From Escherichia phage phiP4: a stretch of DNA of 64,000 nucleotides. The stretch lies in the sequence record PP993145.1; one strand, 5' to 3'. Every line of letters starts with the position of its first letter. The stretch's first letter is position 1. Below, piece by piece: positions 51,512 to 62,510 of the stretch. The position numbers and the translations under genes were made by a program. A model generated the notes under the pieces. It did no database searches and was not told where the DNA came from. It was given only the letters and a program-made list of their open reading frames with translations.

Positions 51512-51549
51512 AGCTGCTCCTAAATTTAGCTATCTCTAGCTATTTTAAT

Positions 51550-51625
51550 GGTAGTTAGTAGTGGATTTGAACCACTGTAATCGCTCCGTATGAAGGAGGT
51601 GCATAACCGCTCTGCCAACTAACTA
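51550..51625 (-). tRNA. tRNA-Met/Ile2 (anticodon CAT)
   Basis: Hand fold: acceptor AGTTAGT/ACTAACT, T-arm AGTGG-TTCAAAT-CCACT, loop TTCATAC, CCA encoded. Confidence 0.65.
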
Positions 51626-51720
51626 TTATGTTTTACTAGACTAAGTAAGTATTCTTTATACTCTTTAGTCCAATTAGCTTTTTTAAACTTTCCTGGACGC
51701 ATAGTCTTAATTCCTAAATT

Positions 51721-51797
51721 TGGTACTCCGGGAGGGATTTAAACCCCCGATCTCTCGGTTATCAGCCGAGTGCTTTAGATCGCTAAGCTACCGAAGT
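51721..51797 (-). tRNA. tRNA-Ile (anticodon GAT)
   Basis: Anticodon stem CTCGG/CCGAG loop CTGATAA; CCA encoded. Confidence 0.7.
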
Positions 51798-51798
51798 A

Positions 51799-52026
51799 TT
51801 AACATTTTACAGCAGAACGTTTGCCATTTCTAGGCGCACCTGGAAGTCGTGCACGTTCTGCCATTATTCGCTTAATCTTTGAGATATTTTCTAGTGTTTG
51901 TTTTTCAGGCTTAATACCTGAAACACTACACCACTGACTACCATCCCATGCGGTAATGATCATAACACCATTACTCATGATCTTTTCTGTGAAAGTAATC
52001 CTCATTATAGCAACTCGTCTAAGCAA
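51799..52026 (-). CDS. hypothetical protein, 75 aa
   Basis: ORF between tRNA genes. Confidence 0.3.
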   Translation of the reverse strand: MLRRVAIMRITFTEKIMSNGVMIITAWDGSQWCSVSGIKPEKQTLENISKIKRIMAERARLPGAPRNGKRSAVKC

Positions 52027-52298
52027 GAGGTATATTTAAGTTTACCATCTTTATCTACTTTGATTTCGACTTCCGCTCGTGGTACTTGACGAACTACACC
52101 ATGAATCATCTTATAGCGAATGCCTTTAGCTGGTTCATGCTCTTTTGGAAATACTTGCTTAACCGTTACTACCTTGAAACCCTCACGCGGTGTTAACACT
52201 ACTACTTGATCACCTTTTTTGATCTTCCAAGAGCTAGGAAATTCATAGGTATAGCGTTGACCACCAGTTTGGAACACAACAGAAAGATAACGTTTCAT
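52005..52298 (-). CDS. hypothetical protein, 97 aa
   Basis: ORF behind promoter 52329-52357. Confidence 0.4.
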   Translation of the reverse strand: MKRYLSVVFQTGGQRYTYEFPSSWKIKKGDQVVVLTPREGFKVVTVKQVFPKEHEPAKGIRYKMIHGVVRQVPRAEVEIKVDKDGKLKYTSCLDELL

Positions 52299-52328
52299 TT
52301 GGTTTCCCTCTCATTAATTTATATAAAT

Positions 52329-52357
52329 ATTATAACAAGAAATAAGAGAGAAAGCAA
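52329..52357 (-). promoter_or_regulatory. sigma70 early promoter (TTGCTT-17-TATAAT)
   Basis: Hexamers read on minus strand. Confidence 0.55.
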
Positions 52358-52365
52358 ATGAATTT

Positions 52366-52560
52366 TTAATAGAGTTTAGTCACTTCATAAACTATACTAC
52401 GAGATTCTTTATTACGTTCTATTAAATTAGCGTATGCTTTTTCAGCTTCGTTTTTAGTATTAAAGTCTATAACGTGGGAGGTATTAGCTCTGTTTGATTG
52501 ACTATACCAGATAACTACTAGGAGTTTAAACATACTAGTCCTTAAATTGGTGCTGGGCAC
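52366..52560 (-). CDS. hypothetical protein, 64 aa
   Basis: ORF; 3' end overlaps tRNA by a few nt. Confidence 0.3.
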   Translation of the reverse strand: MPSTNLRTSMFKLLVVIWYSQSNRANTSHVIDFNTKNEAEKAYANLIERNKESRSIVYEVTKLY

Positions 52561-52634
52561 AGGATTCGAACCTGCAGTGGGATTACTCCTCCTGATTACA
52601 AATCAGGTGCATTCAACCATTCTGCCAACCCAGC
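52548..52634 (-). tRNA. tRNA-Thr-like (anticodon TGT), 87 nt with 15-nt variable arm
   Basis: Acceptor GCTGGGT/GCCCAGC, A73, stem CCTGA/TCAGG loop TTTGTAA, GGA-GTAA-TCC hairpin in variable region. Confidence 0.5.
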
Positions 52635-52799
52635 AGAACCCGTTATTTCAACGGGATTTCTTTTTCAATAACAGGAGACTTATCAGTCATAACTGTCATT
52701 GCCATTTGTTGTAGAAATTCAAAGGTGAAGGCTACACGTTCTTCACCAATCTCTACTTCTACACGTTTCTTTTGTTTATCGATCTTGACTTTTAGGTTA

Positions 52800-53021
52800 T
52801 CAGCCATCTTCGGGTTCTCGTTGCTGTGCTACTTCTAGCCAGTCTGGTAGAAGAAACTTTGTACGAAATTCTTCGTAAGTTTCTTTGGGATAAAAGCTAA
52901 AACCTCCTTTCTCATCATTCAGGATAACAGAGCCGTCCGTTTGTTCGTATGCTCGGTATGTTTCTCCAATAACAATAACTCGTTTATCGGTACTTTTATT
53001 ACGAAACTCAAAAACGTGCAT
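52800..53021 (-). CDS. hypothetical protein, 73 aa
   Basis: ORF. Confidence 0.35.
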   Translation of the reverse strand: MHVFEFRNKSTDKRVIVIGETYRAYEQTDGSVILNDEKGGFSFYPKETYEEFRTKFLLPDWLEVAQQREPEDG

Positions 53022-53037
53022 AACGTTTCCTTAAAGT

Positions 53038-53113
53038 TGGAGCGGCTAGAGGGAATCGAACCCTACTCAGCGAGGCTTGGAAGGCCTGCGACACAACCCG
53101 TGTGCTTAACCGC
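53038..53113 (-). tRNA. tRNA-Gly (anticodon TCC)
   Basis: 76 nt, T-loop TTCGATT, anticodon loop CTTCCAA, CCA encoded. Confidence 0.6.
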
Positions 53114-53121
53114 TTATTATT

Positions 53122-53197
53122 TGGCTGGAGAAGGAGGAATCGAACCTACCATTAACGGAGTCAAAGGCCGTTGTGCTAACCGTTACACTACTCTCCA
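53122..53197 (-). tRNA. tRNA-Gln (anticodon TTG)
   Basis: 76 nt, loop CTTTGAC, acceptor TGGAGAG/TTCTCCA. Confidence 0.65.
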
Positions 53198-53203
53198 ATT
53201 GTT

Positions 53204-53279
53204 TGGCTGGGATGCCACGGATCGAACGTGGAACCTTCGGAGTCAGAGGCCGACGATCTGCCAATTGATCTACATCCCA
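53204..53279 (-). tRNA. tRNA-Gln (anticodon CTG)
   Basis: 76 nt, loop CTCTGAC, acceptor TGGGATG/CATCCCA. Confidence 0.65.
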
Positions 53280-53288
53280 AGAATGCTA

Positions 53289-53525
53289 TTAGCTAGATGC
53301 TGTTTCTACTGGCTGAGAAACAGCAGGCTGTTCTAACGTATCTGGTGCTGATACAGAGAAAAGAGCTTGTAATGCTGCAATATCACGCTCGTAAGTATCA
53401 ATACGAGTAGTAAGAGTATCTACCATCTGTTTATGGTAGGATAAGTTATTCTGAGATTCATCTCGAAGAGTTTGCAGTTCTGCAAGACGTGTTAACATAA
53501 TTTCACTAATTAAAGCATTACTCAT
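53289..53525 (-). CDS. hypothetical coiled-coil protein, 78 aa
   Basis: ORF. Confidence 0.35.
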   Translation of the reverse strand: MSNALISEIMLTRLAELQTLRDESQNNLSYHKQMVDTLTTRIDTYERDIAALQALFSVSAPDTLEQPAVSQPVETASS

Positions 53526-53715
53526 TTGTTTCTCCTAAGTTTTCCTGTTCTTCTAAACGTTTGCCTTCATGATCTACTCGAATAACTCCGCATCCTTCGC
53601 AAATCACAACTGCACCATAACCTTCTTTGACCTCAGCTTCTGTAATCAAACCAGAAAGATCACCAGTATCTCTGCCCCACATATCAATGGAGCATTGTTT
53701 GCAGAAATCAGCCAT
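53518..53715 (-). CDS. hypothetical zinc-ribbon-like protein, 65 aa
   Basis: CxxC...CxxC pairs. Confidence 0.35.
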   Translation of the reverse strand: MADFCKQCSIDMWGRDTGDLSGLITEAEVKEGYGAVVICEGCGVIRVDHEGKRLEEQENLGETNE

Positions 53716-53740
53716 ATTTTATTTCCTATTTAAGTTAATT

Positions 53741-53817
53741 TGGGGTGGCTAGTGGAATTCGAATCCACATAGGCCTGATTCACAATCAGGATCATTAACC
53801 AATTATGATATAGCCAC
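53741..53817 (-). tRNA. tRNA-His (anticodon GTG)
   Basis: Stem CCTGA/TCAGG loop TTGTGAA, acceptor GTGGCTA/TAGCCAC, discriminator C. Confidence 0.75.
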
Positions 53818-54380
53818 AATTGAAAACTCGCAGGGTTAGCGAAACCTTCCTCAATTAGCATGTTCTAGAATACTAATCAAGTTATCTCCTATTGCACGCA
53901 GCTCAAGACGAGTACGAATTTTCAATTGTGGCGGCTCTCAGAAACTCTTCTACTCTAGCTTTAGCAGCTTACTCCCGAACGCATGTCGGGGAAGTCTTAC
54001 CAAGAGCATCAAATAGCACCGTTACACTTTGAGCCATAGATGTATCAAGAAGCAGAAGGATTTGAACCTTCACGAGATAGACCAGTTATCTCAGCCGCTT
54101 TATGAGGTATGTTGCAGGGAGTGGATGTTCCCTATAAACCTTTTAGGCAGCCCCGTCTACCGATTCCGGCATACTTCAAGAATTTTTTATAAACCAGCAG
54201 AAGCCTCATTTAAAGCATCAACAATAGCTTCACGTTGGGTCATTCCATACCCGGTGGAATCTAGGTGTGGCAAATAAGCCATCCATCCCTTATCTGTTTC
54301 ATGAAGACATGCTTTAAATTTTTTACCATCCTTCATTGTTACAGTAACTGTTTTGCTCATAAGATTTCCTTATAGTTAAT

Positions 54381-54470
54381 TGGCAGAAGATAATGGAGTC
54401 GAACCATCACCGTATCGCTACAGCGGGCTGGTTTTCAAGACCAGTTACGTACCACTACGTCCTATCTTCT
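54381..54470 (-). tRNA. tRNA-Ser (anticodon TGA), class II
   Basis: 90 nt, stem CTGGT/ACCAG loop CTTGAAA, long variable arm. Confidence 0.7.
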
Positions 54471-54483
54471 AGTATTTATTATA

Positions 54484-54831
54484 CTAATAGTCACTCGTAC
54501 TAGTGAAGTTTTCTACTTTTCCACAGATTTTACAAGTCCTACGATGATAGTAGGTAATTTTTACTTTAGACCAGCCATCGTGATCATTACCTAGGTTTTC
54601 TGTTACTCCCCAAGTATGAGAACACTCATTTTCAATTTGCTTAGTAAGAGCGTTATAGCGAGTATAAAACTCCTCCTGAGCAATAGCAAATTCTTTCTGT
54701 AGTTTATCACGAGCAATAATAGCACGTTCCAGATATGTTAAATCAGGCATTCCAGCTTTTTCAGCAACATCTATAATCTTATCTTCATCTAAAGATGCTA
54801 AAAACTCTAGAGCTTTATCTTTTGTTAGCAT
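54484..54831 (-). CDS. hypothetical protein with C-terminal CxxC pair, 115 aa
   Basis: ORF. Confidence 0.4.
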   Translation of the reverse strand: MLTKDKALEFLASLDEDKIIDVAEKAGMPDLTYLERAIIARDKLQKEFAIAQEEFYTRYNALTKQIENECSHTWGVTENLGNDHDGWSKVKITYYHRRTCKICGKVENFTSTSDY

Positions 54832-54850
54832 TATTATTACCTCAAGTGTT

Positions 54851-54941
54851 TGGCGGAAGAGGAGAGATTTGAACTCTCAAGCCGTTTTACCAGTCAGCCA
54901 CTTTCCAAGCGGTTTTCGTCACCAATTCGATTTGCTCTTCC
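54851..54941 (-). tRNA. tRNA-Ser (anticodon GGA), class II
   Basis: 91 nt, T-arm GAGAG-TTCAAAT-CTCTC, loop TTGGAAA. Confidence 0.6.
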
Positions 54942-55043
54942 AATAATAAGATGATGCCTCTATCACACCAGGCAGTTACGCCTCGCTGGGATTCGAACCC
55001 ATTAAAACAGCTCAACCGAGATAGTAGGTTTAATTTACTCTGA

Positions 55044-55120
55044 CCATCAAATTTGGTGCGTGACAAGGGATTCGAACCCTCAAAACCCGACTTCTAAGGA
55101 CGGTATGTATGCCAATTCCA
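55044..55120 (-). tRNA. tRNA with anticodon TAG (Leu codon CUA) but class I short variable loop
   Basis: 77 nt, acceptor GCGTGAT/GTCACGC, A73, loop CTTAGAA, 5-nt variable GTTTT; covaries with tRNA at 59288. Confidence 0.55.
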
Positions 55121-55135
55121 TCAATCACGCATATT

Positions 55136-55214
55136 TGGTGGAGAATAACGGAATCGAACCGTTCTGATGTCCTCGGTGCAAGCGAGGTGTCCACTCCATG
55201 CAGACCCATTCCCC
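55136..55214 (-). tRNA. tRNA-Ala (anticodon TGC) with G3:U70
   Basis: Stem CCTCG/CGAGG loop CTTGCAC; G3-U70 wobble in acceptor. Confidence 0.75.
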
Positions 55215-55229
55215 AAATTCTTTAGTTTA

Positions 55230-55411
55230 CTAAGGCTATTAGCTCGGCGTAACTACAGCACCTTCGCTTCGAGCGGAAGGAACTGCGTCATCTCGCAAAC
55301 CCAATACACTATTCAGTTGCCGCTGAATCTAGTGGACCAATCTAGAACTTCTCCCGAATCAGGGGGATCGTGCTTTTTGGCAGCCAGTCCTAGGTCGAGC
55401 TAATACCTTAG
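55230..55411 (-). ncRNA. candidate structured small RNA closed by a 16-bp terminal helix
   Basis: 55230-55246 pairs with 55396-55411 (one bulge); internal hairpins; promoter at 55453-55481 on same strand; no credible ORF. Confidence 0.4.
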
Positions 55412-55452
55412 TGAACTATGATGAGGATTTCTCCTCATCAATTTATATAAAT

Positions 55453-55481
55453 ATTATAACAAGAAATTAAGCATCAAGCAA
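55453..55481 (-). promoter_or_regulatory. sigma70 early promoter (TTGCTT-17-TATAAT) upstream of ncRNA candidate
   Basis: Hexamers read on minus strand. Confidence 0.55.
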
Positions 55482-55500
55482 CTGCGTTTTTTCTTGAAAT

Positions 55501-55579
55501 TGGTAGATCGCCTGGGACTCGAACCCAGAACCTTCCGATTAAAAGTCGGATGCTACTAAACCTATTGAGCTAGCGATCT
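55501..55579 (-). tRNA. tRNA-Lys (anticodon TTT)
   Basis: Stem TCCGA/TCGGA loop CTTTTAA, acceptor AGATCGC/GCGATCT. Confidence 0.7.
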
Positions 55580-55768
55580 ATTAGTAACCATTATACACTT
55601 CTTTAATAGAGTGGACTTTTAAGTAAGGGTGATTAGTACTAAACTCTACCATTACTTCATCCCAATTTTTACCATAATGAGCAAGTAAGGATTTTGATGT
55701 ATTCTTACCTAATCGTTTATCACTTACTACTAATCGAAATACTTTCATTTCGAAATCCTCTATTAAAA

Positions 55769-55846
55769 TGGAAGCGGGTGCAGGAATCGAACCTACCTCT
55801 TTCTAGCTTATGAGACTAGCGATCTCTACCAGAGATCTAACCCGCG
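55769..55846 (-). tRNA. tRNA-Met (anticodon CAT), C1-U72 mismatch
   Basis: Loop CTCATAA, acceptor CGCGGGT/ACCCGCT with unpaired 1-72. Confidence 0.6.
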
Positions 55847-55852
55847 ATTATT

Positions 55853-55928
55853 TGGTCAGTGCGGCAGGACTCGAACCTGCGACCCGAAGCATCCAAGGCT
55901 CCCACGCTACCAACTGCGCTACGCACTG
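55853..55928 (-). tRNA. tRNA-Pro (anticodon TGG)
   Basis: 76 nt, loop CTTGGAT, acceptor CAGTGCG/CGCACTG. Confidence 0.7.
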
Positions 55929-55959
55929 TTAATTTTTGTTAACTCACTTTATAAGATAT

Positions 55960-55988
55960 ATTATACAGAGAATTAAGCAGAATAGCAA
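55960..55988 (-). promoter_or_regulatory. sigma70 promoter (TTGCTA-17-TATAAT) driving tRNA-Pro/Met unit
   Basis: Hexamers read on minus strand immediately upstream of tRNA-Pro. Confidence 0.55.
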
Positions 55989-56380
55989 ATGAATTTTTAA
56001 TAAATTTACTTATTGTGTAGGCCACCTAGAGGCTATGAACCCCACGGCTGACAAAGAAGTTTGCGAGACTTCTCTTAAATGCCAGAATAGACCCGCCGAT
56101 CTATCGGAACCTACATAATAAGTAAACTTTATAGTGTCATTCTAGACAGGACTCGAACCTGTTATCACTTGTGCGGACTTACGAGAACCATTCTTTCACT
56201 CGAATCGAACGAGCTTCTGCCCTCGCCAAGCTGGTTTCCCCATCAACCACGCTAGAATGTTTGATTGTTTTCAGTGCAAGAGTCCGAGTCTTGGACACGA
56301 CCGCTTCGCAAGTACATAGGCAGCTTATCATGAGTCAGCACTTCCGAATTGCTAGCTCCGTGTTCTGCACTGAAATTTTA

Positions 56381-56728
56381 TTAGTTTAACCGTAAAGTAT
56401 TATCTACTTCACCATTAATTGTTCGGCATTCTTCTGGGATTGCCGGGGTAGCCTTATATTCCCACCACTCAGCACCATCATATTCCCCACGTTCTAACCA
56501 AGTTCCATCGGCAAACCATACATTACCATAAAGTAATTGTCCACCGTATCCAGAATCATATTCAAAGTCTAGGTTATTAAGAAAATCCTCAATATCTTCT
56601 TCTGTATAACCTAAAGGTAATACCCAAACTTTTTTATCCCCATAATACCCGAATTCTATTTTAATACACTTAACTTCAGAATTAGTATTTTTTAAGGCAA
56701 GTAACAACTCTTCTTTAGCATTACGCAT
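56381..56728 (-). CDS. hypothetical protein, 115 aa
   Basis: ORF. Confidence 0.4.
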   Translation of the reverse strand: MRNAKEELLLALKNTNSEVKCIKIEFGYYGDKKVWVLPLGYTEEDIEDFLNNLDFEYDSGYGGQLLYGNVWFADGTWLERGEYDGAEWWEYKATPAIPEECRTINGEVDNTLRLN

Positions 56729-56753
56729 AATATATTCTCATACTGAATTAATT

Positions 56754-56830
56754 TGGCGCGACCGATGGGATTCGAACCCACATTCTCTCCCGTGACAGGG
56801 GAGTACCATTACCAAGCCAGCCCCGGTCGC
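56754..56830 (-). tRNA. tRNA-Asp (anticodon GTC)
   Basis: Stem CTCCC/GGGAG loop CTGTCAC, acceptor GCGACCG/CGGTCGC. Confidence 0.75.
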
Positions 56831-56839
56831 ATGATCTGT

Positions 56840-57025
56840 TTATTCAGCTTTGAGTTTTTCAATAGCTGCATTAAGTTCTTTAAGAAACTCTTTTCGTACA
56901 TTAAGACGATTGAGACTTACTAGTATATCATGTTTAAGTTCTTCGATGTATTTCTTCTCAACTTCAATATTGTTGATAGTGCTATCACGATGAACTTCTA
57001 ACTGTGCAATTACATTCTTGGACAT
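56840..57025 (-). CDS. hypothetical coiled-coil protein, 61 aa
   Basis: ORF. Confidence 0.3.
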   Translation of the reverse strand: MSKNVIAQLEVHRDSTINNIEVEKKYIEELKHDILVSLNRLNVRKEFLKELNAAIEKLKAE

Positions 57026-57126
57026 GCTTATTTCCTCAGTTATTAATGAAAATGGTATCTGTGGCTGAATTCGATGTCAGCAATGATAGCTGGTTGGCTA
57101 CCGGTTTACTTAACTCTACACAGAAT

Positions 57127-57209
57127 TTGGCGGGCCGTGTAGGATTCGAACCTACGTTGTCTTTCGACATGGATTAACAGTCCACCGCCAAACCGCTTGG
57201 CTAACGACC
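57127..57209 (-). tRNA. tRNA-Asn-like (anticodon GTT), 83 nt with 13-nt GNRA-capped variable arm
   Basis: Anticodon arm GGACTGTTAATCC as in E. coli tRNA-Asn, G73, Ser/Tyr-like D-arm AGCCAAGCGGTTTGGC, variable GTC-GAAA-GAC. Confidence 0.5.
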
Positions 57210-57362
57210 CTAAATTTATATTGCTGACTAGGATTTTCACCTAGACGGAGTTAGCACCGTAGCGTGTAGCGGCATACCTCTCCAAACCGTGCCTCATCTT
57301 TCAATTACGGAGACAGTGTTCCTACGCGTGCCTGAATTGATTTAACAATTCTTTCAGCAAAT

Positions 57363-57438
57363 TGGACGACCGCATGAGATTTGAACTCACATAAAAAGGA
57401 TTTGCAATCCTTCGCCTAAGCCATTCAGCCAACGGTCG
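57363..57438 (-). tRNA. tRNA-Cys (anticodon GCA)
   Basis: Stem AAGGA/TCCTT loop TTGCAAA. Confidence 0.7.
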
Positions 57439-57505
57439 ATTTATTATCTTTCATAACGTGCAGCTACATGGTCGGAACCACAACACTTAAATCTAACTAA
57501 TCGTT

Positions 57506-57748
57506 TCATTTAACACGCTCCGGTAGATCTTCTAGTTTATATTCAGTAGCCACATTAGCAGCATCTAAAAGTAATCCCATGTGTTTAAGGATTTTAGTGA
57601 TAGATTCGCCTTTGGCTTCTTCTACGAAAGAACGTAGATGAACAAAGTCAATTCCACCGTCCATACCAGAGAAAATATTTAGTAAGCGAAGCATTACCAG
57701 CTTACGTTCATTCAATTCTTGTTCTGTCATGTTGCTTCTCCAGTTCAA
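57506..57748 (-). CDS. hypothetical protein, 80 aa
   Basis: ORF behind promoter 57760-57788. Confidence 0.4.
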   Translation of the reverse strand: MNWRSNMTEQELNERKLVMLRLLNIFSGMDGGIDFVHLRSFVEEAKGESITKILKHMGLLLDAANVATEYKLEDLPERVK

Positions 57749-57759
57749 TTTATATAATT

Positions 57760-57788
57760 ATTATACAGAACTTTTGGAAACTAAGCAA
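57760..57788 (-). promoter_or_regulatory. sigma70 early promoter (TTGCTT-17-TATAAT)
   Basis: Hexamers read on minus strand. Confidence 0.55.
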
Positions 57789-58068
57789 CTACATTTTTTA
57801 AGAATTTGATGCCTTTCTTTTTCTTCTTATATTTCCACGTTAAGGGATTCTGTCGATTATGAACGCTTGAGATCTTCGTCTCGTCAAAGTTCTTCAATAT
57901 CATGTAATCACAAGATAATTGTTCTAGTGGAATGTGATCACCGTCAAAAGCGTATACATAAGGCTGTTGACTAGCACGATAATGATAGACTTTGTTAATT
58001 CTACGTTTCAGCGACTTATCCGCGCAGTAAATAAAGAAGTTTTCAGGATGCATCAGCAGCTCCTTCAA
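57781..58068 (-). CDS. hypothetical protein, 95 aa
   Basis: ORF. Confidence 0.35.
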   Translation of the reverse strand: MKELLMHPENFFIYCADKSLKRRINKVYHYRASQQPYVYAFDGDHIPLEQLSCDYMILKNFDETKISSVHNRQNPLTWKYKKKKKGIKFLKNVVA

Positions 58069-58135
58069 TTTGGTGCACCCTGTTCGTATCGAACGAACCT
58101 CTCAAGCTCTTCAGGCAAGCGCTAATCCATCTCAG
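58061..58135 (-). tRNA. tRNA-Phe (anticodon GAA), U-U mismatches in anticodon stem
   Basis: 75 nt, D-stem GCTG/TAGC, loop CTGAAGA. Confidence 0.5.
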
Positions 58136-58142
58136 CTAAAGG

Positions 58143-58219
58143 TGCAAATTTTTGGCAAACCTACTAGGACTCGAACCTAGACCGTACGGTTTTGGAGACC
58201 GACATGCTGTCCAGTAACA
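58143..58219 (-). tRNA. tRNA-Trp (anticodon CCA), two U-U mismatches in acceptor stem
   Basis: Loop CTCCAAA as in E. coli tRNA-Trp; T-arm CTAGG-TTCGAGT-CCTAG. Confidence 0.5.
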
Positions 58220-58227
58220 CTCTAGGA

Positions 58228-58304
58228 ATGCAGGAATTGGCGTCCTGTGAGGGGATCGAACCCGCAAATCCTACCTTGAAAGGGTAGTGACTTTACCAGT
58301 TTGT
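58228..58304 (-). tRNA. tRNA-Glu (anticodon TTC)
   Basis: Stem CTACC/GGTAG loop CTTTCAA, acceptor GTCCTGT/ACAGGAC. Confidence 0.7.
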
Positions 58305-58310
58305 CTAACA

Positions 58311-58398
58311 GGACTTAAATTGGTGGGGAAAGATGGAGTCGAACCACCCGAGTCGCAATGACAACTGATTTACAGTCAGCTCTGCTACCACTTACAGA
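58311..58398 (-). tRNA. tRNA-Tyr (anticodon GTA), class II
   Basis: 88 nt, loop CTGTAAA, long variable arm, acceptor GGGGAAA/TTTCCCC. Confidence 0.7.
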
Positions 58399-58539
58399 AT
58401 ATTTCCCCATATTTAGAAGTATTCAAAAAATTCTCATTTAAACACTTTTAAATATGTTTCCAAATTAGATAAATATTATATCAAGTTTTATAGCACTGAG
58501 CAAGTCAAATTTTAAAGAACTTGCTCAGTGCTGTATTAG

Positions 58540-58815
58540 TTAGTCGAACTTAGGAGTGACAGTTAAGGAGAATGGAAGTTCGAAAACTTCTTCACCCTCA
58601 TCACTAACAGTAATTACACGACCTTTAAGTTCAGACATTGAAATATCAATATCAGCTTTTGCATCTGGAGCCATGCCAGCTTCAACACATTTAGCTTTAA
58701 TTTCCGGTAGAAGTTCTACATCGTAGAAATAAAGCCATTCAATCTCACCTTCCCAGCCTTCCCAGGATTTACAGATTGCACTTTCAATACCAGCTGCTAT
58801 AACACGATTTTGCAT
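58540..58815 (-). CDS. hypothetical acidic protein, 91 aa
   Basis: ORF behind promoter 58845-58874. Confidence 0.4.
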   Translation of the reverse strand: MQNRVIAAGIESAICKSWEGWEGEIEWLYFYDVELLPEIKAKCVEAGMAPDAKADIDISMSELKGRVITVSDEGEEVFELPFSLTVTPKFD

Positions 58816-58844
58816 TCGTTAACTCCTCCATCAATTTATATAAC

Positions 58845-58874
58845 TATTATACCAGAAATTTAAAGCAAAAGGCA
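58845..58874 (-). promoter_or_regulatory. sigma70 early promoter (TTGCCT-18-TATAAT)
   Basis: Hexamers read on minus strand. Confidence 0.45.
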
Positions 58875-58905
58875 AGTACATTTTTAAAAATTCTGTTTGG
58901 AAGAG

Positions 58906-59112
58906 CTAAACTCCAGACTCTTCAGCCAAGTCTAGACTAATAAGAGATATAGCCATAATTGCTGCTCCATGTTCTTTTTCTCCAGTTTCTTTAGCTAGAG
59001 TTATAATATCAAGAAATTGCTTATGAAAATCTGCAACCTCTTGAGTTAAACCCGCCTCAGCAATCATACCTTTAAGCATGAAACGTTGTGCGGTAATTTC
59101 AGGATTAGCCAT
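58906..59112 (-). CDS. hypothetical protein, 68 aa
   Basis: ORF. Confidence 0.35.
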   Translation of the reverse strand: MANPEITAQRFMLKGMIAEAGLTQEVADFHKQFLDIITLAKETGEKEHGAAIMAISLISLDLAEESGV

Positions 59113-59287
59113 GTTGTTTCTCCAGTTTCATCTTTAATAGTCTACAAATAAAATCAATGTCTTCATCCGTGCCTAGATCTCTATCTTCAAGAGTTGCCTT
59201 GAAGTTTTTAGTCAATTCCATGAGAATAACTTCTCTAGAACGACGTGTTGGCGGAGGTGGATGTCTATACATCTTATTTCCTTAATT

Positions 59288-59364
59288 TGGTAGGGGTGGT
59301 GGGATTCGAACCCACAAAACCTGAATTTTAAGTCCAGTACCTATGCCAATTCGATTACACCCCC
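59288..59364 (-). tRNA. tRNA with anticodon TAA (Leu codon UUA/UUG) but class I short variable loop
   Basis: 77 nt, loop CTTAAAA, A73, variable GTTTT; compensatory changes vs tRNA at 55044 support the fold. Confidence 0.55.
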
Positions 59365-59465
59365 ATGTAATCAGTTTATTAGTTGATACATATTATAGCC
59401 TAGTGAAAATCCTACTACTAATCCCACAAACCAACCAATATAATAATCTTTTAGTTTCACAGGTA

Positions 59466-59651
59466 TTATCCTCGTTCAATATCTAGGGAAATACCGCAGT
59501 TAGGATTAATACCTGTACCATTGCAATTTGCGCAAACCCAGATATTGCAAAAAGTATCTCCTGCTTCTGCATCAGAACTTTCACCAATTCCCCTACACTC
59601 AGGGCAGGCACATTCCTCTAGCTCTTGCTTGAGTTCTTGAAACTTGGACAT
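59466..59651 (-). CDS. zinc-ribbon protein, 61 aa
   Basis: CPEC...CANC Cys pairs. Confidence 0.4.
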   Translation of the reverse strand: MSKFQELKQELEECACPECRGIGESSDAEAGDTFCNIWVCANCNGTGINPNCGISLDIERG

Positions 59652-59659
59652 ATAGTCTC

Positions 59660-59848
59660 CTAGTTAATTACTTTTGAGGCTTCTAAAGCATTGACGTAGT
59701 AAACATCTTCTACATTATACATATAGTCTACTACTTTGTCCATAGCATGGAGTTCAGATGTAGCCTTTACTAGTCTGTACCCTTGCTTAAACTCGTCCGA
59801 ATGTTCTCTATCTTGTGCAAATTTAACAGAAACTATGAATAATTCCAT
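59660..59848 (-). CDS. hypothetical protein, 62 aa
   Basis: ORF. Confidence 0.35.
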   Translation of the reverse strand: MELFIVSVKFAQDREHSDEFKQGYRLVKATSELHAMDKVVDYMYNVEDVYYVNALEASKVIN

Positions 59849-59867
59849 TAGTTGTCCTTATTTAATT

Positions 59868-59945
59868 TGGTGGCTCCCCGAGGATTCGAACCTACGTACC
59901 TTCCGGTTATGAGCCGGGTGCTCATACCATATGAGCTTGAGAACC
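59868..59945 (-). tRNA. tRNA-Met (anticodon CAT), initiator-like anticodon arm
   Basis: CCCGG-CTCATAA-CCGGAAGG resembles E. coli tRNA-fMet. Confidence 0.6.
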
Positions 59946-59951
59946 AAAATC

Positions 59952-60040
59952 TGGCGGAAGAAGTGGGAATCGAACCCACAAGGCTATATTTCAAGCCGAC
60001 AGATTAGCAATCTGCTGCAATACCGTTATGCTATTCTTCC
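59952..60040 (-). tRNA. tRNA-Ser (anticodon GCT), class II
   Basis: 89 nt, loop TTGCTAA, variable arm GGCT...AGCC. Confidence 0.65.
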
Positions 60041-60055
60041 GAATTTATAAGATAT

Positions 60056-60084
60056 ATTATATTAGAAATTTAGCTTCATAGCAA
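60056..60084 (-). promoter_or_regulatory. sigma70 promoter (TTGCTA-17-TATAAT) driving tRNA-Ser/Met unit
   Basis: Hexamers read on minus strand upstream of tRNA-Ser(GCT). Confidence 0.55.
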
Positions 60085-60580
60085 GAAAATTTTTCAAGTT
60101 TTCGGTAGACATCTCATCCACATCTACAGGAGAAACAAAGCCGTTTAATTTTCTAGCAAATTTTTCACCTGCAGGGTCATTATCCCCGACAGCTACCAAT
60201 TTAAAAGGTAATAATTTCAGTTGCTTTAATAACGCTTTTCCTGGAGAAGAACCCAACATTGCCAGGGCTGGATAACCAGCGTTATGTAACGCAACTGCCT
60301 TAAATACAGATTCAGCAATCAATACTACTTTTTCATCTCCATTGAGAGTTTCTAGTCCCCATACACACTGGATAGTAGAATAAGTAAAATATTTAGCTTC
60401 AAATGGGCACTTACCATGACCTTTTGGAGCAGAAGGATTATACGTCTGATAGCCTCTCAACATCCCAGAGAAGTCATACAACGGGACTGTTAGCCATCCT
60501 TCCGGACTTAACCAGCAATGATATTTATCTGTATCAAATCCTCTAGATAAGAGGTGCTGTGTTAGCTCATCAACATTCAT
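60062..60580 (-). CDS. Toprim-domain protein (putative), 172 aa
   Basis: IAESVF (Glu) and GDNDPAGEK (DxD) motifs; start moved to internal Met with GAGAGAGG RBS because promoter lies inside ORF-track N-terminus. Confidence 0.4.
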   Translation of the reverse strand: MNVDELTQHLLSRGFDTDKYHCWLSPEGWLTVPLYDFSGMLRGYQTYNPSAPKGHGKCPFEAKYFTYSTIQCVWGLETLNGDEKVVLIAESVFKAVALHNAGYPALAMLGSSPGKALLKQLKLLPFKLVAVGDNDPAGEKFARKLNGFVSPVDVDEMSTENLKNFLAMKLNF

Positions 60581-60610
60581 ATTTGGTTCCTCTCTCAAAT
60601 TTATAGATAT

Positions 60611-60639
60611 ATTATACAGAGAATTTAGCATTCAAGCAA
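60611..60639 (-). promoter_or_regulatory. sigma70 early promoter (TTGCTT-17-TATAAT)
   Basis: Hexamers read on minus strand. Confidence 0.55.
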
Positions 60640-60755
60640 TCAAATTTTTTAACTTTTTAGAGGAAAATCATATGGCACTTAAGGGTAGCAGATAAGTGGT
60701 GAGGACCAAAATTTGTGACCCCACTAAAAATCCGGGGGTAATTTTTAAAGACCCC

Positions 60756-60784
60756 TTGACATTTTCTCGGGGGTAGTGTAAAGT
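60756..60784 (+). promoter_or_regulatory. sigma70 promoter (TTGACA-17-TAAAGT) for plus-strand operon
   Basis: Hexamers read on plus strand upstream of 60847 start. Confidence 0.5.
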
Positions 60785-60846
60785 ATACGTTATGGATGAG
60801 TGATCAAAGAGACACACATTTTCTATATACTAGGAGGTGTCAAAAA

Positions 60847-61833
60847 ATGACAGAAGAAGTAGCTAAGAGTCCTGAGACCGTCGCTAGCGTTGCAGCAGAA
60901 CTGCACCGTCACGAGGAATCGGATAAGAAAAAGTGGGAGAAGGTCAGAGCCTACGAAGAGAAACATCGCGAACACGACGATGAAGAAGATGACGATGATG
61001 AACATTGTCATAAATATGGAAAACATAAAATGCAAGAACCAGTAAACGTATTCACTAGTGGCTTCCCTGGCCTACTGGGTGGTTACCCAGCAAACGCAGG
61101 TGCTTTCGGTGGTGAAGGTATGGGACTATTCGGAGCTATCCTAATCGGTGCTCTATTAACAGGCGGATTCGGTGGTTTCGGTGGATTCGGTGGACGTGGT
61201 GTAGTTGGTGATGGTACCGCAGTTGATGCAGTACTTCAGAACCAAGATACCGCTAGTATTCTAGCAGCTATTAACACTACTCGTACAGAAGCTAACCAGG
61301 GTACTGGAGCTGTTTTAAGCGCAGTTAACAATGGTTTTAGCCAGACATCCCAAAACCAGAGCCGTGATACTCAGTCTGTACTAACTACGATCTATGGTAC
61401 AGGTGCTAATCTGTCTAATCAGATCTGCCAGGAAACTCGCAACGTTATTCAGGGTCAGTTCGATCTTTCTCGCCAGATTGATCAATCTTTCGCAGCTAAC
61501 CAGATAGCTCGTGCACAAGATAAGTTTGATTCTGCACAGATCGCTTTCCAGCAGACTTTACAAACTAATAACCAGTTTGCCGCTGTTCAGGCTCAGATGT
61601 GTGCTAACCAGAACTCTCTGGAACGTCAGATCGCTGAATGTTGCTGTGAACTTCAGACTGCGATCGCTGGTGTAACTACTGCGCGTATCCAGGATGAGTT
61701 AGACGCATGTCGCCTACGTGAAGCAATCGCTGCTGGTAGCGGTGCTAACGGTCAGGTAATTAATCAAATCGCTTTAAGTCTTGGTGCTATCACTCAGACT
61801 CTGGCTGGTCTGCAGGCTAAACTGCCGGCTTAA
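60847..61833 (+). CDS. membrane protein with glycine-zipper TM segment and Gln/Asn-rich helical domain, 328 aa
   Basis: AGGAGG RBS before ATG 60847; GLFGAILIGALLTGGFGGFGGFGG; acidic N-terminus. Confidence 0.5.
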   Translation: MTEEVAKSPETVASVAAELHRHEESDKKKWEKVRAYEEKHREHDDEEDDDDEHCHKYGKHKMQEPVNVFTSGFPGLLGGYPANAGAFGGEGMGLFGAILIGALLTGGFGGFGGFGGRGVVGDGTAVDAVLQNQDTASILAAINTTRTEANQGTGAVLSAVNNGFSQTSQNQSRDTQSVLTTIYGTGANLSNQICQETRNVIQGQFDLSRQIDQSFAANQIARAQDKFDSAQIAFQQTLQTNNQFAAVQAQMCANQNSLERQIAECCCELQTAIAGVTTARIQDELDACRLREAIAAGSGANGQVINQIALSLGAITQTLAGLQAKLPA

Positions 61834-61854
61834 TATTAAGGGGAGGAGCCCATT

Positions 61855-62259
61855 ATGAGTAAATATGGTTTTGTAAATAACGGACTTAATCAAAGTATGG
61901 GCTCCCAGCAGCCCATGCCGGGTCTGGATAACCCCTACTTACAACAGTTGCAACAGCGTTTAGCAGAAGCGCAACAGATGCAGCAACAACTCCAGCAAAA
62001 CCCTGGAAGTGTGAGTCCTATGCAAATGATGCAGCAAATGAGCGGGCAGTCGCAAATGCCTCAACAAATGCAGCAACAGGTGCCGCAGCAGCAAACCCAA
62101 CAACCGCAGGTTTCTGCGGAAGGACAGGCAGTACTAGCCCTTTTCGAAGACTTCGCAAAGACAGAGGATGGGAAACAGCTTGTATCACTTATGGGTAAGT
62201 TTAATAGCTTCTGCCAAAGCCAAGTTGCAAAAGCTCAAAATGGTGGTAATAACTCCTAA
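61855..62259 (+). CDS. Gln-rich low-complexity protein, 134 aa
   Basis: GGAGG RBS; QQ-rich repeats. Confidence 0.45.
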   Translation: MSKYGFVNNGLNQSMGSQQPMPGLDNPYLQQLQQRLAEAQQMQQQLQQNPGSVSPMQMMQQMSGQSQMPQQMQQQVPQQQTQQPQVSAEGQAVLALFEDFAKTEDGKQLVSLMGKFNSFCQSQVAKAQNGGNNS

Positions 62260-62268
62260 GGAGGAATT

Positions 62269-62463: not shown

Positions 62464-62475
62464 ACCAAAAAACAA

Positions 62476-62510
62476 AAGCCCCTGCCGAAAGGTAAGGGGC
62501 TTTTTCTTTT
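62476..62510 (+). terminator. intrinsic terminator of plus-strand operon
   Basis: agcccct...aggggct hairpin followed by T-run. Confidence 0.65.

What the first reader, a model, noticed from the sequence alone, without database searches (positions are those of the whole stretch)
52548..59364. tRNA set with swapped architectures: Leu-anticodon tRNAs lack the long arm, Thr/Asn-anticodon tRNAs carry one
By hand folding, the tRNAs with anticodons TAG (55044-55120) and TAA (59288-59364) have a 5-nt variable loop, although bacterial tRNA-Leu is normally class II. Their folds are supported by compensatory changes between the two genes (pairs 12:24, 29:43, 32:40). Conversely, the TGT tRNA (52548-52634) and GTT tRNA (57127-57209) carry 13-15 nt hairpin variable arms capped by GNRA loops. 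The GTT tRNA combines an Asn-like anticodon arm with a Ser/Tyr-like D-arm. Such chimeric bodies could change aminoacylation identity or be adaptations to escape host anticodon nucleases.
Basis: partly seen in the sequence, partly recalled or inferred. Interest (0 to 1): 0.7.

Follow-up and report, generated by a model that had tools for sequence, protein, structure and literature searches.

The report
Phage tRNAs with swapped arm architecture
A T5-like phage carries leucine tRNAs that lack the usual long extra arm, and threonine and asparagine tRNAs that have gained one; these shapes occur in hundreds of viral contigs, almost never in cellular genomes, and may help phage tRNAs survive bacterial tRNA-cutting defences.

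Summary
ARAGORN and the Rfam tRNA covariance model give the same anticodons and the same shapes. Leu(UAG) and Leu(UAA) are 77 nt with a 5-nt variable loop. Thr(UGU) is 87 nt and Asn(GUU) 83 nt, each with a 3-bp hairpin arm capped by GTAA or GAAA.

The window is a T5-like phage, but reference T5 has the canonical shape at all three shared slots, so these are alternative alleles. Each tRNA keeps the E. coli identity elements for its anticodon's amino acid. Codons ACA, AAY, UUA and CUA align with Thr, Asn and Leu in T5 orthologues. A change of amino-acid identity is therefore not supported.

The shapes are widespread in viruses. Arm-less Leu occurs in at least 120 IMG/VR contigs, with A73 and U48 essentially invariant. 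Long-arm Asn occurs in at least 120 contigs and 560 phage records. Long-arm Thr with a class-II-type D-arm occurs in 38 contigs. In 185,579 cellular genomes the long-arm Asn pattern matched only 30 times.

Published work shows that PARIS AriB and P2 OLD cut host Thr(UGU) and Asn(GUU). Phage Bas33 carries near-identical Thr and Leu genes, and its Thr(UGU) counters OLD. Whether the arm itself confers resistance is untested. I found no description of these architectures in the searchable literature.

The parts
52548..52634 (-). tRNA-Thr(UGU), 87 nt. It has a class-II-type 17-nt D-arm and a 15-nt variable arm. G1-C72, C2-G71, A73; anticodon at 52598-52600.
   Evidence: ARAGORN; Rfam 58.6 bits with an insertion in the variable region; domain parse; coordinates
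52576..52590 (-). Variable arm of Thr(UGU): A-GGA-GTAA-TCC-CACT (3-bp stem, GNRA loop, 1 nt 5' and 4 nt 3' of the stem)
   Evidence: Relatives show GTAA/GCAA/ATAA loops and stems GGA/TCC, GGC/GCC, GAC/GTC
55054..55130 (-). tRNA-Leu(UAG), 77 nt, class-I shape. It has a Leu-type 17-nt D-arm (loop GAATTGGCATA), a 5-nt variable loop GTTTT (55082-55086) and A73; anticodon at 55094-55096.
   Evidence: identical gene in phage Bas33
57128..57210 (-). tRNA-Asn(GUU), 83 nt. It has a class-I 15-nt D-arm, a 13-nt variable arm and G73. The anticodon arm is 15/17 identical to E. coli Asn; anticodon at 57176-57178.
   Evidence: identical gene in Bas26 and many Salmonella/Escherichia phages
57156..57168 (-). 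Variable arm of Asn(GUU): GTC-GAAA-GAC-AAC (3-bp stem, GNRA loop, 0 nt 5' and 3 nt 3' of the stem)
   Evidence: T5-like relatives have GTTC-GAAA-GAAC and ATCC-GCAA-GGAT at the same place
59288..59364 (-). tRNA-Leu(UAA), 77 nt, class-I shape. It has the same D-loop and the same variable loop GTTTT (59316-59320) as Leu(UAG), G1·U72 and A73; anticodon at 59328-59330.
51549..63636 (-). tRNA gene region of the phage: 22 ARAGORN tRNAs plus one found only by Rfam, all on the minus strand, separated by small ORFs. It is syntenic with the T5 tRNA region.

Best explanation
These four genes are working phage tRNAs that decode and are charged as their anticodons say (Leu, Leu, Thr, Asn), but they sit in the 'wrong' structural class.

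The two Leu tRNAs are leucine bodies from which only the long arm is missing. Bacterial LeuRS does not use that arm.

The Thr and Asn tRNAs carry a short hairpin arm whose geometry resembles that of tRNA-Tyr. The Thr tRNA sits on a Ser-like class-II core. Both keep the few nucleotides that ThrRS and AsnRS read (acceptor pairs or discriminator, plus the anticodon).

They are alternative alleles that occupy the same slots as canonically shaped tRNAs in phage T5. They belong to large families that are almost confined to viruses.

The most likely selective reason, at least for Thr and Asn, is to supply replacement tRNAs that host tRNA-cutting immune nucleases fail to recognise. [quoted passage not shown]

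Shown here: the architecture, the conservation and covariation, the identity elements, the distribution in viruses versus cells, and the absence of codon reassignment. Taken from papers: which host tRNAs are cut, and that Bas33 Thr(UGU) counters OLD. Inferred: correct charging, and that the arm (or its loss in Leu) is what confers resistance.
For: Architecture: two independent tRNA finders agree.

Leu identity: A73, A14, A15, G18G19, A20a and U48 are present in both window genes. In 162 distinct arm-less Leu cores from viral contigs, A15, G18 and A73 are invariant; A14, U48, G19 and A20a are near-invariant (159-161 of 162). In loci selected on another tRNA, A73 is found in 46/50, U48 in 49/50 and A20a in 48/50. 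The identity review states that E. coli leucine identity rests on A73, A15-U48, G18G19 and A20a, and not on the arm or the anticodon. The nearest non-self cores of arm-less Leu are long-arm Leu in 40/60 cases. Ser (96/96) and Tyr (52/55), whose synthetases do use the arm, keep it in the same loci.

Thr and Asn identity: G1-C72, C2-G71 and G35U36 in Thr; GUU plus G73 in Asn. G73 is nearly universal in about 90 distinct long-arm Asn tRNAs.

No recoding: in 18 ORF pairs against T5, ACA aligns with T in 30/32 cases, AAY with N in 116/130, UUA with L in 56/61 and CUA with L in 31/31.

Selection on the arm: a stem of at least 3 bp occurs in 88% of Asn arms and 78% of Thr arms, against 57% and 42% in shuffles. 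GNRA loops cap 58% and 53%. Stems are replaced wholesale (GTC/GAC, GTTC/GAAC, ATCC/GGAT, GAGC/GCTC and others).

The long-arm Asn pattern matched only 30 times in 185,579 cellular genomes, and about 10 of the roughly 17 real cases lie in arrays of 7-35 tRNAs.

Nuclease link: AriB cuts E. coli Lys(UUU), Thr(UGU) and Asn(GUU) (PMC12409363). OLD cuts Thr(UGU) and others after nt 27-29, and Bas33 Thr(UGU) gives strong counter-defence while T5's class-I Thr gives only partial rescue (bioRxiv 10.64898/2026.07.10.737580). Bas33's Thr is the 87-nt long-arm gene. Bas33 escapes PARIS once T5 tRNA-Lys alone is supplied. All reported AriB and OLD targets are class-I tRNAs. Retron-Eco7 and Septu PtuAB cut tRNA-Tyr inside its variable arm, and T5 tRNA-Tyr resists through a distinctive variable loop (PMC13096335).
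Against: No charging or cleavage experiment exists for these exact tRNAs, and none isolates the arm. Class-I phage Thr(UGU) tRNAs (T4, Bas32) also rescue from OLD, and Bas32's stays intact, so an arm is not required for resistance. The T5 Thr and Asn tRNAs that were shown to neutralise PARIS are the class-I versions. E. coli LeuRS could not charge the type-I tRNA-Leu(CAA) of Streptomyces coelicolor (PMC6614811), so charging of an arm-less Leu by the host enzyme is not guaranteed. Long arms also turn up in isotypes with no known nuclease link (Trp, Cys, Met, Ile-UAU). I found no defence that targets the arm of tRNA-Leu. The resemblance of the Thr and Asn cores to class-II tRNAs could reflect structural co-adaptation rather than descent.
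Confidence: 0.6

Rival explanations
1. Tolerated drift. Phage tRNAs evolve under relaxed structural constraint. The arm of Leu is lost because LeuRS does not need it. Small hairpins are inserted into Thr and Asn because ThrRS and AsnRS read mainly the anticodon and the acceptor end. Once present, the hairpin is kept stable only to avoid misfolding. The architecture itself has no anti-defence role.
For: The shapes change exactly where synthetase biology predicts tolerance. Other tRNAs of the same window are also odd: a 19-nt D-arm in Lys, a 7-nt variable loop in Ala and 6-nt loops in Met. Long arms occur at low frequency in many isotypes. An intermediate 81-nt Leu(UAG) exists in Bas26. Class-I phage Thr tRNAs resist OLD equally well.
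Against: The families are large and old, and they are spread over unrelated phage lineages with contigs from 5 to 430 kb. About 40% of Leu(UAG/UAA/CAA) tRNAs in phage clusters are arm-less, whereas cellular genomes almost never show the long-arm Asn. The arms favour GNRA caps and a fixed Tyr-like geometry. Canonical and non-canonical alleles alternate at one slot within a single genus, as expected for loci under diversifying selection.
Confidence: 0.25
2. Identity switch or deliberate mistranslation. The class-II-shaped UGU tRNA (A73) is charged by LeuRS, and the G73 GUU tRNA by SerRS, so that Thr and Asn codons are partly read as Leu and Ser, as with nematode nev-tRNAs. Alternatively, the arm-less UAG/UAA tRNAs are charged by another synthetase.
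For: LeuRS and SerRS ignore the anticodon. The Thr tRNA has A73, A14, A15, a terminal U in the arm and a Ser/Leu-like D-arm. The Asn tRNA has G1-C72, G2-C71 and G73 as tRNA-Ser does. Nematode class-II tRNAs with Gly or Ile anticodons decode an alternative code for leucine (PMC3333845, listed).
Against: In the Thr tRNA, G18G19 sit one position earlier than in tRNA-Leu, and position 20a is U rather than A. Relatives have U73 about as often as A73, whereas A73 is essential for Leu. C2-G71 is a listed antideterminant against SerRS, and G73 one against LeuRS and TyrRS. The 3-bp arms with 3-4 unpaired 3' nucleotides differ from Ser arms (5-7 bp, about 1 nt 3'). Most long-arm Asn tRNAs start U1-A72 like E. 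coli Asn, not G1-C72 and G2-C71. Codon-to-residue alignment against T5 shows standard meaning. Phages of one genus swap the two allele types. Bas33's own tRNAs support infection under PARIS.
Confidence: 0.05
3. The extra hairpins, or the absence of one, are handles for something other than defence evasion. Candidates are a phage or host modification enzyme, processing of the polycistronic tRNA transcripts, or a GNRA tetraloop contact.
For: GNRA loops are classical RNA-RNA and RNA-protein contact modules, and they cap 53-62% of the Asn, Thr and Lys arms. Ile(UAU) tRNAs in about 20 viral contigs carry a long arm with a conserved sequence motif, which suggests sequence-specific recognition in that case.
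Against: Apart from the loop class, the arm sequences are not conserved, and GNRA loops are also common in ordinary Leu and Ser arms (36-48%). No candidate partner gene is consistently adjacent in the window.
Confidence: 0.08

Closest known systems
Phage T5 nuclease-resistant tRNAs: tRNA-Lys(UUU), Thr(UGU) and Asn(GUU) against PARIS AriB; tRNA-Tyr against Retron-Eco7/Septu PtuAB; T5-like Thr(UGU) against P2 OLD
   Same: Same virus family, same genomic region and the same anticodons (Thr UGU, Asn GUU). The published function is to replace host tRNAs that are cut by immune nucleases. For tRNA-Tyr, the variable region is the reported resistance determinant.
   Different: T5's own Thr and Asn are class-I tRNAs only about 60-64% identical to the window's. 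The papers discuss the anticodon stem-loop and the D-loop. The word 'variable' does not occur in PMC12409363 or PMC10264068. The long-arm alleles have been used (Bas33) but not described as such.
Type-I (short variable loop) tRNA-Leu of Streptomyces coelicolor (CAA) and of animal mitochondria
   Same: A leucine tRNA without the long arm that is still a LeuRS substrate (A73 is retained in the mitochondrial type-I tRNA-Leu).
   Different: Those are single cellular or organellar cases with co-adapted LeuRS enzymes, and E. coli LeuRS does not charge the Streptomyces one. The phage family keeps the full E. coli-type D-loop identity set, covers the UAG, UAA, CAA, GAG and CAG anticodons, and must rely on the host enzyme.
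Nematode nev-tRNAs (class-II tRNAs with Gly or Ile anticodons)
   Same: A long variable arm on a tRNA whose anticodon belongs to a class-I amino acid.
   Different: nev-tRNAs are described as decoding an alternative code for leucine. The phage Thr and Asn tRNAs keep the identity elements of their own anticodon's amino acid, and the codons show standard meaning.
Bacterial tRNA-Tyr (class II, short 3-bp arm)
   Same: The arm geometry of the phage Asn, Thr and Lys arms matches the Tyr type: a 3-4 bp stem with 0-1 unpaired nucleotide 5' and 3-4 unpaired nucleotides 3' of it. Many long-arm Asn cores are closest to Tyr or Ser cores.
   Different: The anticodon and discriminator are those of Asn or Thr, and the window's Asn has a class-I D-arm.

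Membership tests
tRNA (RF00005) | Cloverleaf scored by the covariance model above the gathering score, with a 7-nt anticodon loop | tested here: met
   47.5-59 bits against a gathering score of 29 for all four, full-length matches 1-71/71; ARAGORN cloverleaves
tRNA-Leu as an E. coli-type LeuRS substrate | Discriminator A73 | tested here: met
   Both window genes; 162/162 and 186/186 viral arm-less Leu
tRNA-Leu as an E. coli-type LeuRS substrate | A15:U48 pair, G18G19 in the Leu register, A14 and A20a in an 11-nt D-loop | tested here: met
   D-loop GAATTGGCATA against E. coli GAATTGGTAGA; the variable loop ends in U; these columns are invariant or nearly so
tRNA-Leu as an E. coli-type LeuRS substrate | Long variable arm (class II), which is typical of the family but not an E. 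coli identity element | tested here: not met
   5-nt loop GTTTT in both; the review says the arm is not needed by E. coli LeuRS
tRNA-Leu as an E. coli-type LeuRS substrate | Leucylation by host LeuRS | not testable with these tools
   Needs an aminoacylation assay. One caution: E. coli LeuRS fails on S. coelicolor type-I Leu
tRNA-Thr (E. coli ThrRS identity) | G1-C72 and C2-G71 plus G35 and U36 | tested here: met
   GCTGGGT...GCCCAGC with anticodon UGT; GC start conserved in 30 distinct relatives; identity set
tRNA-Thr (E. coli ThrRS identity) | Class-I body (4-5-nt variable loop) | tested here: not met
   15-nt arm and 17-nt class-II-type D-arm
tRNA-Asn (bacterial AsnRS identity) | Anticodon G34 U35 U36 plus discriminator G73 | tested here: met
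   G73 nearly universal among about 90 distinct long-arm Asn tRNAs; identity set
tRNA-Asn (bacterial AsnRS identity) | Class-I body | tested here: not met
   13-nt hairpin arm
tRNA-Ser (SerRS substrate), considered for the GUU and UGU tRNAs | Long arm of Ser type (5-7 bp, about 1 unpaired nucleotide on each side) on a class-II D-arm; G2-C71; G73 | tested here: not met
   The arms are 3 bp with 3-4 unpaired 3' nucleotides. The Asn D-arm is class I. The Thr tRNA has C2-G71 (a listed SerRS antideterminant) and A73
nev-tRNA-like identity-switched class-II tRNA (charged with Leu) | A73 with the Leu-type D-loop register, independent of the anticodon | tested here: not met
   G18G19 are shifted by one position and 20a is U in the Thr tRNA. 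Relatives have U73 about as often as A73. Codon meaning is standard
Nuclease-evading phage tRNA | Same anticodon as a host tRNA that is cut by a known immune nuclease | tested here: met
   Thr(UGU): AriB, OLD, HepS. Asn(GUU): AriB. Not met for Leu
Nuclease-evading phage tRNA | Remains uncut and restores infection when the nuclease is active | not testable with these tools
   Indirect only: Bas33 Thr(UGU), which differs from the window's by 2 nt, gives strong counter-defence against OLD, and Bas33 needs only tRNA-Lys under PARIS

The most novel reading that the evidence does not exclude
Switching the structural class of a tRNA is a general, selected counter-defence move in phages. [quoted passage not shown] Removing the arm from tRNA-Leu, which is the only class-II tRNA whose synthetase does not need it, would escape nucleases that recognise or cut long arms, as PtuAB does on tRNA-Tyr. 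This would add a second axis, overall architecture, to the known anticodon-loop mutations by which phage tRNAs evade immunity. It would also predict an undiscovered defence directed at the arm of tRNA-Leu.
Probability: 0.3. Interest if true: 0.8.

Novelty: new variant of a known kind. Interest (0 to 1): 0.62.

Why it matters
[quoted passage not shown] Here both rules are broken systematically, and almost only in viruses.

About 40% of Leu(UAG/UAA/CAA) tRNAs in the phage clusters sampled lack the arm. Hundreds of phages carry Asn or Thr tRNAs with an arm.

This matters in three ways. First, it gives a natural, large and covarying data set on which tRNA features each host synthetase really needs. 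Second, it offers a directly testable structural explanation for how phage tRNAs resist the recently discovered tRNA-cutting defences (PARIS, OLD, HepS, Septu and retrons). The variable region was not mentioned in two of the key papers on this. Third, it warns annotators that length or class filters will mislabel phage tRNAs. One public record calls three tRNAs in this region 'tRNA-OTHER' and another calls the identical Asn gene 'tRNA-Asx'.

Tried and rejected
1. I assumed the published T5 tRNA-Thr and tRNA-Asn (PARIS work) were these genes. This was rejected after reading AY543070: T5 Thr is 75 nt and Asn 78 nt, both class I, Leu(UAG) is 85 nt class II, and T5 has no Leu(UAA).

2. I expected Bas32's Northern-validated OLD-resistant Thr(UGU) to be long-armed. 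It is 75 nt and class I. Only Bas33's is long-armed.

3. My early idea that the window's Asn derives from tRNA-Tyr through a GUA-to-GUU change is not supported for this gene. Its D-arm is class I and Gln-like. Many other long-arm Asn tRNAs do have Tyr/Ser-like cores.

4. Pseudogene or software artefact: rejected on Rfam scores, conservation and covariation.

5. Codon reassignment: rejected.

6. A search for a defence that targets tRNA-Leu found nothing specific. Retron-Kva2 HEPN cuts many RNAs at anticodon loops. Bacterial Schlafen work does not single out class-II tRNAs.

7. Literature searches for a prior description of arm-less phage Leu or long-arm phage Asn and Thr found none. The library lacks most subscription journals, including the 1980s T5 tRNA papers, and the 1970 PNAS paper could not be opened.

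8. The promoter and terminator scan of the region was uninformative: promoter-like sites were at the chance level.

Full report
**What is in the window.**
The window is a T5-like phage of the family Demerecviridae. Bases 52000-60100 match Escherichia phage Stokescottia, Salmonella phage SE11 and Escherichia phage slur09 at about 96% identity, and 1,216 phage records match in all. ARAGORN finds 22 tRNA genes between 51549 and 63636, all on the minus strand. The Rfam tRNA model finds 21 (20 of them shared with ARAGORN), including one that ARAGORN misses. Small minus-strand ORFs lie between the tRNAs. The gene order follows the T5 tRNA region.

**Checking the observation.**
Both programs give the same result for the four genes.

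| tRNA | Coordinates (minus strand) | Length | Variable region |
|---|---|---|---|
| Thr(UGU) | 52548-52634 | 87 nt | AGGAGTAATCCCACT: 3 bp, GTAA loop |
| Leu(UAG) | 55054-55130 | 77 nt | GTTTT |
| Asn(GUU) | 57128-57210 | 83 nt | GTCGAAAGACAAC: 3 bp, GAAA loop |
| Leu(UAA) | 59288-59364 | 77 nt | GTTTT |

The Rfam covariance model aligns all four end to end at 47.5-59 bits. It places 10-11 inserted bases in the variable region of Thr and Asn and none beyond a 5-nt loop in the Leu genes.

Three details need correcting:
- The three compensatory pairs are real if positions are counted along the sequence.
- The 'Ser/Tyr-like D-arm' belongs to the Thr tRNA, not the Asn tRNA. The Thr D-arm is 17 nt with loop GAATGGTTGAA; E. 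coli Ser-UGA has GAGCGGTTGAA. The Asn D-arm is a 15-nt class-I arm, 13/15 identical to that of E. coli tRNA-Gln.

**Comparison with the host and with T5.**
I extracted the E. coli K-12 tRNA set from the genome and split every tRNA into its domains.

Both Leu genes keep the leucine-type D-arm: a 3-bp stem and an 11-nt loop GAATTGGCATA, against GAATTGGTAGA in E. coli. They also keep A73 and a variable loop ending in U.

The Thr gene keeps G1-C72 and C2-G71, and its anticodon arm is 14/17 identical to that of E. coli thrU. The Asn gene keeps G73, and its anticodon arm is 15/17 identical to that of E. coli Asn.

Reference T5 (AY543070) does not share any of the odd shapes. Its Thr(UGU) is 75 nt and its Asn(GUU) 78 nt, both class I. 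Its Leu(UAG) is 85 nt and class II. It has no Leu(UAA). The slots are the same: Thr lies after Ile(GAU), Asn between Asp and Cys, and Leu(UAG) 5 nt from Ala(UGC). The sequences, however, are only about 60-64% identical. These are therefore alternative alleles, not T5's tRNAs.

Within the T5-like subfamily (Markadamsvirinae) the Leu(UAG) slot holds three forms: an 85-nt form (T5), an 81-nt form with a 9-nt variable region (Bas26) and the 77-nt form (window, Bas32, Bas33).

**Are they charged as their anticodons say?**
The 2023 identity review states the following. E. coli leucine identity rests on A73, the A15-U48 pair, G18G19 and A20a, and not on the anticodon or the long arm. Asparagine identity is the anticodon plus G73. 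Threonine identity is acceptor pairs plus the anticodon. C2-G71 acts against SerRS, and G73 against LeuRS and TyrRS. Each window tRNA has the set that matches its anticodon.

Family data agree:
- In 162 distinct arm-less Leu cores from viral contigs, A15, G18 and A73 never vary; U8, A14, G19, A20a, A21 and U48 are each conserved in at least 159 of 162. All 20 base pairs are 99% canonical, with 3-7 pair types each, against 35-44% canonical when partners are slid.
- In loci that were fetched for a different tRNA, arm-less Leu still has A73 in 46/50, U48 in 49/50 and A20a in 48/50. Other class-I tRNAs show U48 in 35% and that A in 48%.
- Long-arm Thr relatives carry A73 or U73. That suits threonine, where position 73 matters little, and not leucine.

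As a direct check on codon meaning, I aligned 18 ORF pairs between the window and T5. Window ACA codons face Thr in 30/32 cases, AAC/AAT face Asn in 116/130, UUA faces Leu in 56/61 and CUA faces Leu in 31/31.

I conclude that identity is normal. One caution remains: E. coli LeuRS failed to charge the type-I tRNA-Leu(CAA) of Streptomyces coelicolor.

**How widespread are the shapes?**
- Arm-less Leu. I scanned IMG/VR with a pattern that requires a Leu-type D-loop, a UAR anticodon and class-I spacing. Those loci hold 186 arm-less Leu genes, 174 of them distinct, with anticodons UAG, UAA, CAA, GAG and CAG. All have A73. In the same loci Ser (110/112) and Tyr (50/53) keep their arms.
- Share of arm-less Leu. 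With the spacing left free, 17 of the first 120 contigs had the class-I form. In loci selected on Asn or Thr, 46 of 113 Leu(UAG/UAA/CAA) genes are arm-less.
- Long-arm Asn. This scan also hit the 120-contig limit. It gave about 90 distinct sequences from contigs of 5-430 kb, with stems such as GTC/GAC, GAGC/GCTC, CGCC/GGC, TGGC/GCC and GATC/GATC.
- Long-arm Thr with a class-II-type D-arm. This was found in 38 contigs.
- Named phages. Homologues of the Asn gene occur in 560 records, including T5-like phages, Proteus phage Stubb, Morganella phage vB_Mm5 and 150-175-kb Klebsiella, Enterobacter and Erwinia phages. Homologues of the Thr gene occur in 114 records.
- Cellular genomes. The same Asn pattern matched only 30 places in 185,579 bacterial and archaeal species genomes. 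About 17 are real long-arm Asn genes, and about 10 of those lie inside arrays of 7-35 tRNAs.
- Frequency outside the selecting isotype. Long arms are found in 5/77 Asn(GUU) and 2/78 Thr(UGU) genes.

**Anatomy of the arms and origin of the bodies.**
The Asn, Thr and Lys arms have 3-4-bp stems. A stem of at least 3 bp is found in 88%, 78% and 100% respectively, against 57%, 42% and 62% after shuffling. GNRA loops cap 58%, 53% and 62%. There are 0-1 unpaired bases 5' of the stem and 3-4 unpaired bases 3' of it. This is the geometry of tRNA-Tyr, not of Leu (0 and 1-2) or Ser (5-7 bp, 1 and 1).

I then compared only the D-arm, anticodon stem and T-arm. Long-arm Asn cores are closest to class-II tRNAs in 51/90 cases (Tyr 18, Ser 15), against 3/85 for short Asn. 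Long-arm Thr cores are closest to class-II tRNAs in 25/32 cases, against 1/60. Arm-less Leu cores are closest to long-arm Leu in 40/60 cases.

Leu is a Leu body minus the arm. Thr, and many Asn tRNAs, are class-II-like bodies that carry Thr or Asn identity nucleotides. Whether that reflects recruitment of Tyr or Ser genes, or co-adaptation of the D-arm to an inserted hairpin, cannot be decided here.

**Likely function.**
Host tRNAs are now known to be targets of phage defences:
- PARIS AriB nicks E. coli Lys(UUU), Thr(UGU) and, secondarily, Asn(GUU) between positions 40 and 41, while its second monomer touches D-loop U16-U17 (PMC11464382, PMC12409363).
- P2 OLD cuts Thr(UGU), Gly(UCC), fMet, Val(UAC) and Pro(UGG) after nt 27-29 (bioRxiv 10.64898/2026.07.10.737580).
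- HepS cuts Thr, Ile and Ser tRNAs.
- Retron-Eco7 and Septu PtuAB cut tRNA-Tyr inside its variable arm, and T5 tRNA-Tyr resists through a distinctive variable loop.

Phage Bas33 (HildyBeyeler) carries the identical Leu(UAG), a Leu(UAA) with 1 difference, the 87-nt Thr with 2 differences, and an 86-nt Asn whose arm is ATCC-GCAA-GGAT. In the OLD study, Bas33 Thr(UGU) gave strong counter-defence while T5's class-I Thr gave only partial rescue. In the PARIS study, Bas33, which lacks Lys(UUU), was rescued by T5 tRNA-Lys alone. This implies that its own long-arm Thr and Asn suffice.

[quoted passage not shown] A steric-shield role is therefore reasonable. It remains inferred, for three reasons. T4 and Bas32 class-I Thr tRNAs also rescue. 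The T5 tRNAs shown to neutralise PARIS are class I. No experiment isolates the arm.

For Leu I found no defence aimed at its arm. The safest statement is that the loss is permitted because LeuRS ignores the arm. Evasion of arm-directed nucleases is a hypothesis.

**Comparison with what is known, and novelty.**
The genes themselves are already in public records as tRNA-Leu, tRNA-Thr and tRNA-Asn. The Thr gene is annotated as tRNA-Thr in a 13.7-kb Salmonella phage 5 record, AJ604531. The closest known things are:
- T5's nuclease-resistant tRNAs;
- type-I tRNA-Leu of S. coelicolor and of animal mitochondria;
- nematode nev-tRNAs;
- bacterial tRNA-Tyr, for the arm geometry.

I found no paper in the searchable library that describes arm-less Leu or long-arm Asn and Thr as a phage feature. 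The phage-tRNA evasion paper and the AriB specificity paper never use the word 'variable'. The review of non-canonical tRNAs never mentions phages. The identity review says Leu keeps its arm everywhere except in animal mitochondria. Older subscription literature on T5-group tRNAs could not be searched, so prior description cannot be excluded.

**Verdict.**
The identity-change reading is not supported. The anti-nuclease reading is plausible for Thr and Asn, with the arm's own role untested, and open for Leu. I rate it a new variant of a known kind, with interest 0.62.

Noticed in passing
IMG/VR loci L025, L041, L058, L087, L090, L105, L119, L120, L127 and others: tRNA-Ile(UAU) genes with 22-27-nt variable arms that share a conserved motif (G)CCAGATTAGCG across unrelated viral contigs. 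About half of the Ile-UAU tRNAs seen (20 of 49) have a long arm. Unlike the Asn and Thr arms, the sequence itself is conserved, which suggests a specific binding partner.
   Followed up: no
window 54047-54178 (-): A 132-nt tRNA-like element between tRNA-His and tRNA-Ser, just below the Rfam threshold (26.5 bits against 29), with a T-arm-like GAAGGTTCAAATCCTTC at 54055-54071. T5 annotates 'tRNA-like stable RNAs of unknown function' (RNAIII, RNAI, RNA1) at the syntenic spot.
   Followed up: partly
window 59871-59945 (-): A tRNA with anticodon CAU found by Rfam (40.3 bits) but missed by ARAGORN. It is syntenic with T5 tRNA-Ile2(CAU) and probably has mismatches in the acceptor stem.
   Followed up: partly
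window 55501-55579, 55136-55214, 51549-51624, 55769-55846 (-): Other tRNAs of the set are also irregular. Lys(UUU) has a 19-nt D-arm; Lys(UUU) is the prime AriB target, and AriB is reported to contact D-loop U16-U17. Ala(UGC) has a 7-nt variable loop. Two Met(CAU) genes have 6-nt variable loops.
   Followed up: no
L426 (phage GreteKellenberger/Bas26) 15429-15509: Leu(UAG) of 81 nt with a 9-nt variable region TCTTCGGGT (a minimal UUCG hairpin). It is intermediate between T5's 85-nt class-II form and the 77-nt class-I form at the same slot.
   Followed up: partly
L424 (phage T5, AY543070) tRNA annotations: The T5 record carries experimental notes on which tRNAs become amber suppressors when the anticodon is replaced. 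Leu, Ser, Tyr, Gln, His, Lys, Ala, Gly, Pro and Ile do. Thr, Asn, Asp, Cys, Phe, Trp, Glu, Val, Arg and Met do not. This is a ready-made map of anticodon-dependent identity for T5 tRNAs.
   Followed up: no
genome loci L395, L396, L400, L419 (Verrucosispora and Micromonospora chromosomes): Arrays of 23-35 tRNA genes within 8 kb that include a long-arm Asn(GUU) with arm TCAGG-YGDAA-GCCTGGT. They look like mobile tRNA arrays in actinobacterial chromosomes.
   Followed up: no
viral loci (e.g. L044, L086, L105, L111; L062, L098, L143; L113, L122): Lys(UUU/CUU), Trp(CCA), Cys(GCA), Met(CAU) and Glu(UUC) tRNAs with 11-20-nt hairpin arms, many GNRA-capped, occur at low frequency in diverse viral contigs (Trp 12/115, Cys 10/97 overall).
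   Followed up: partly
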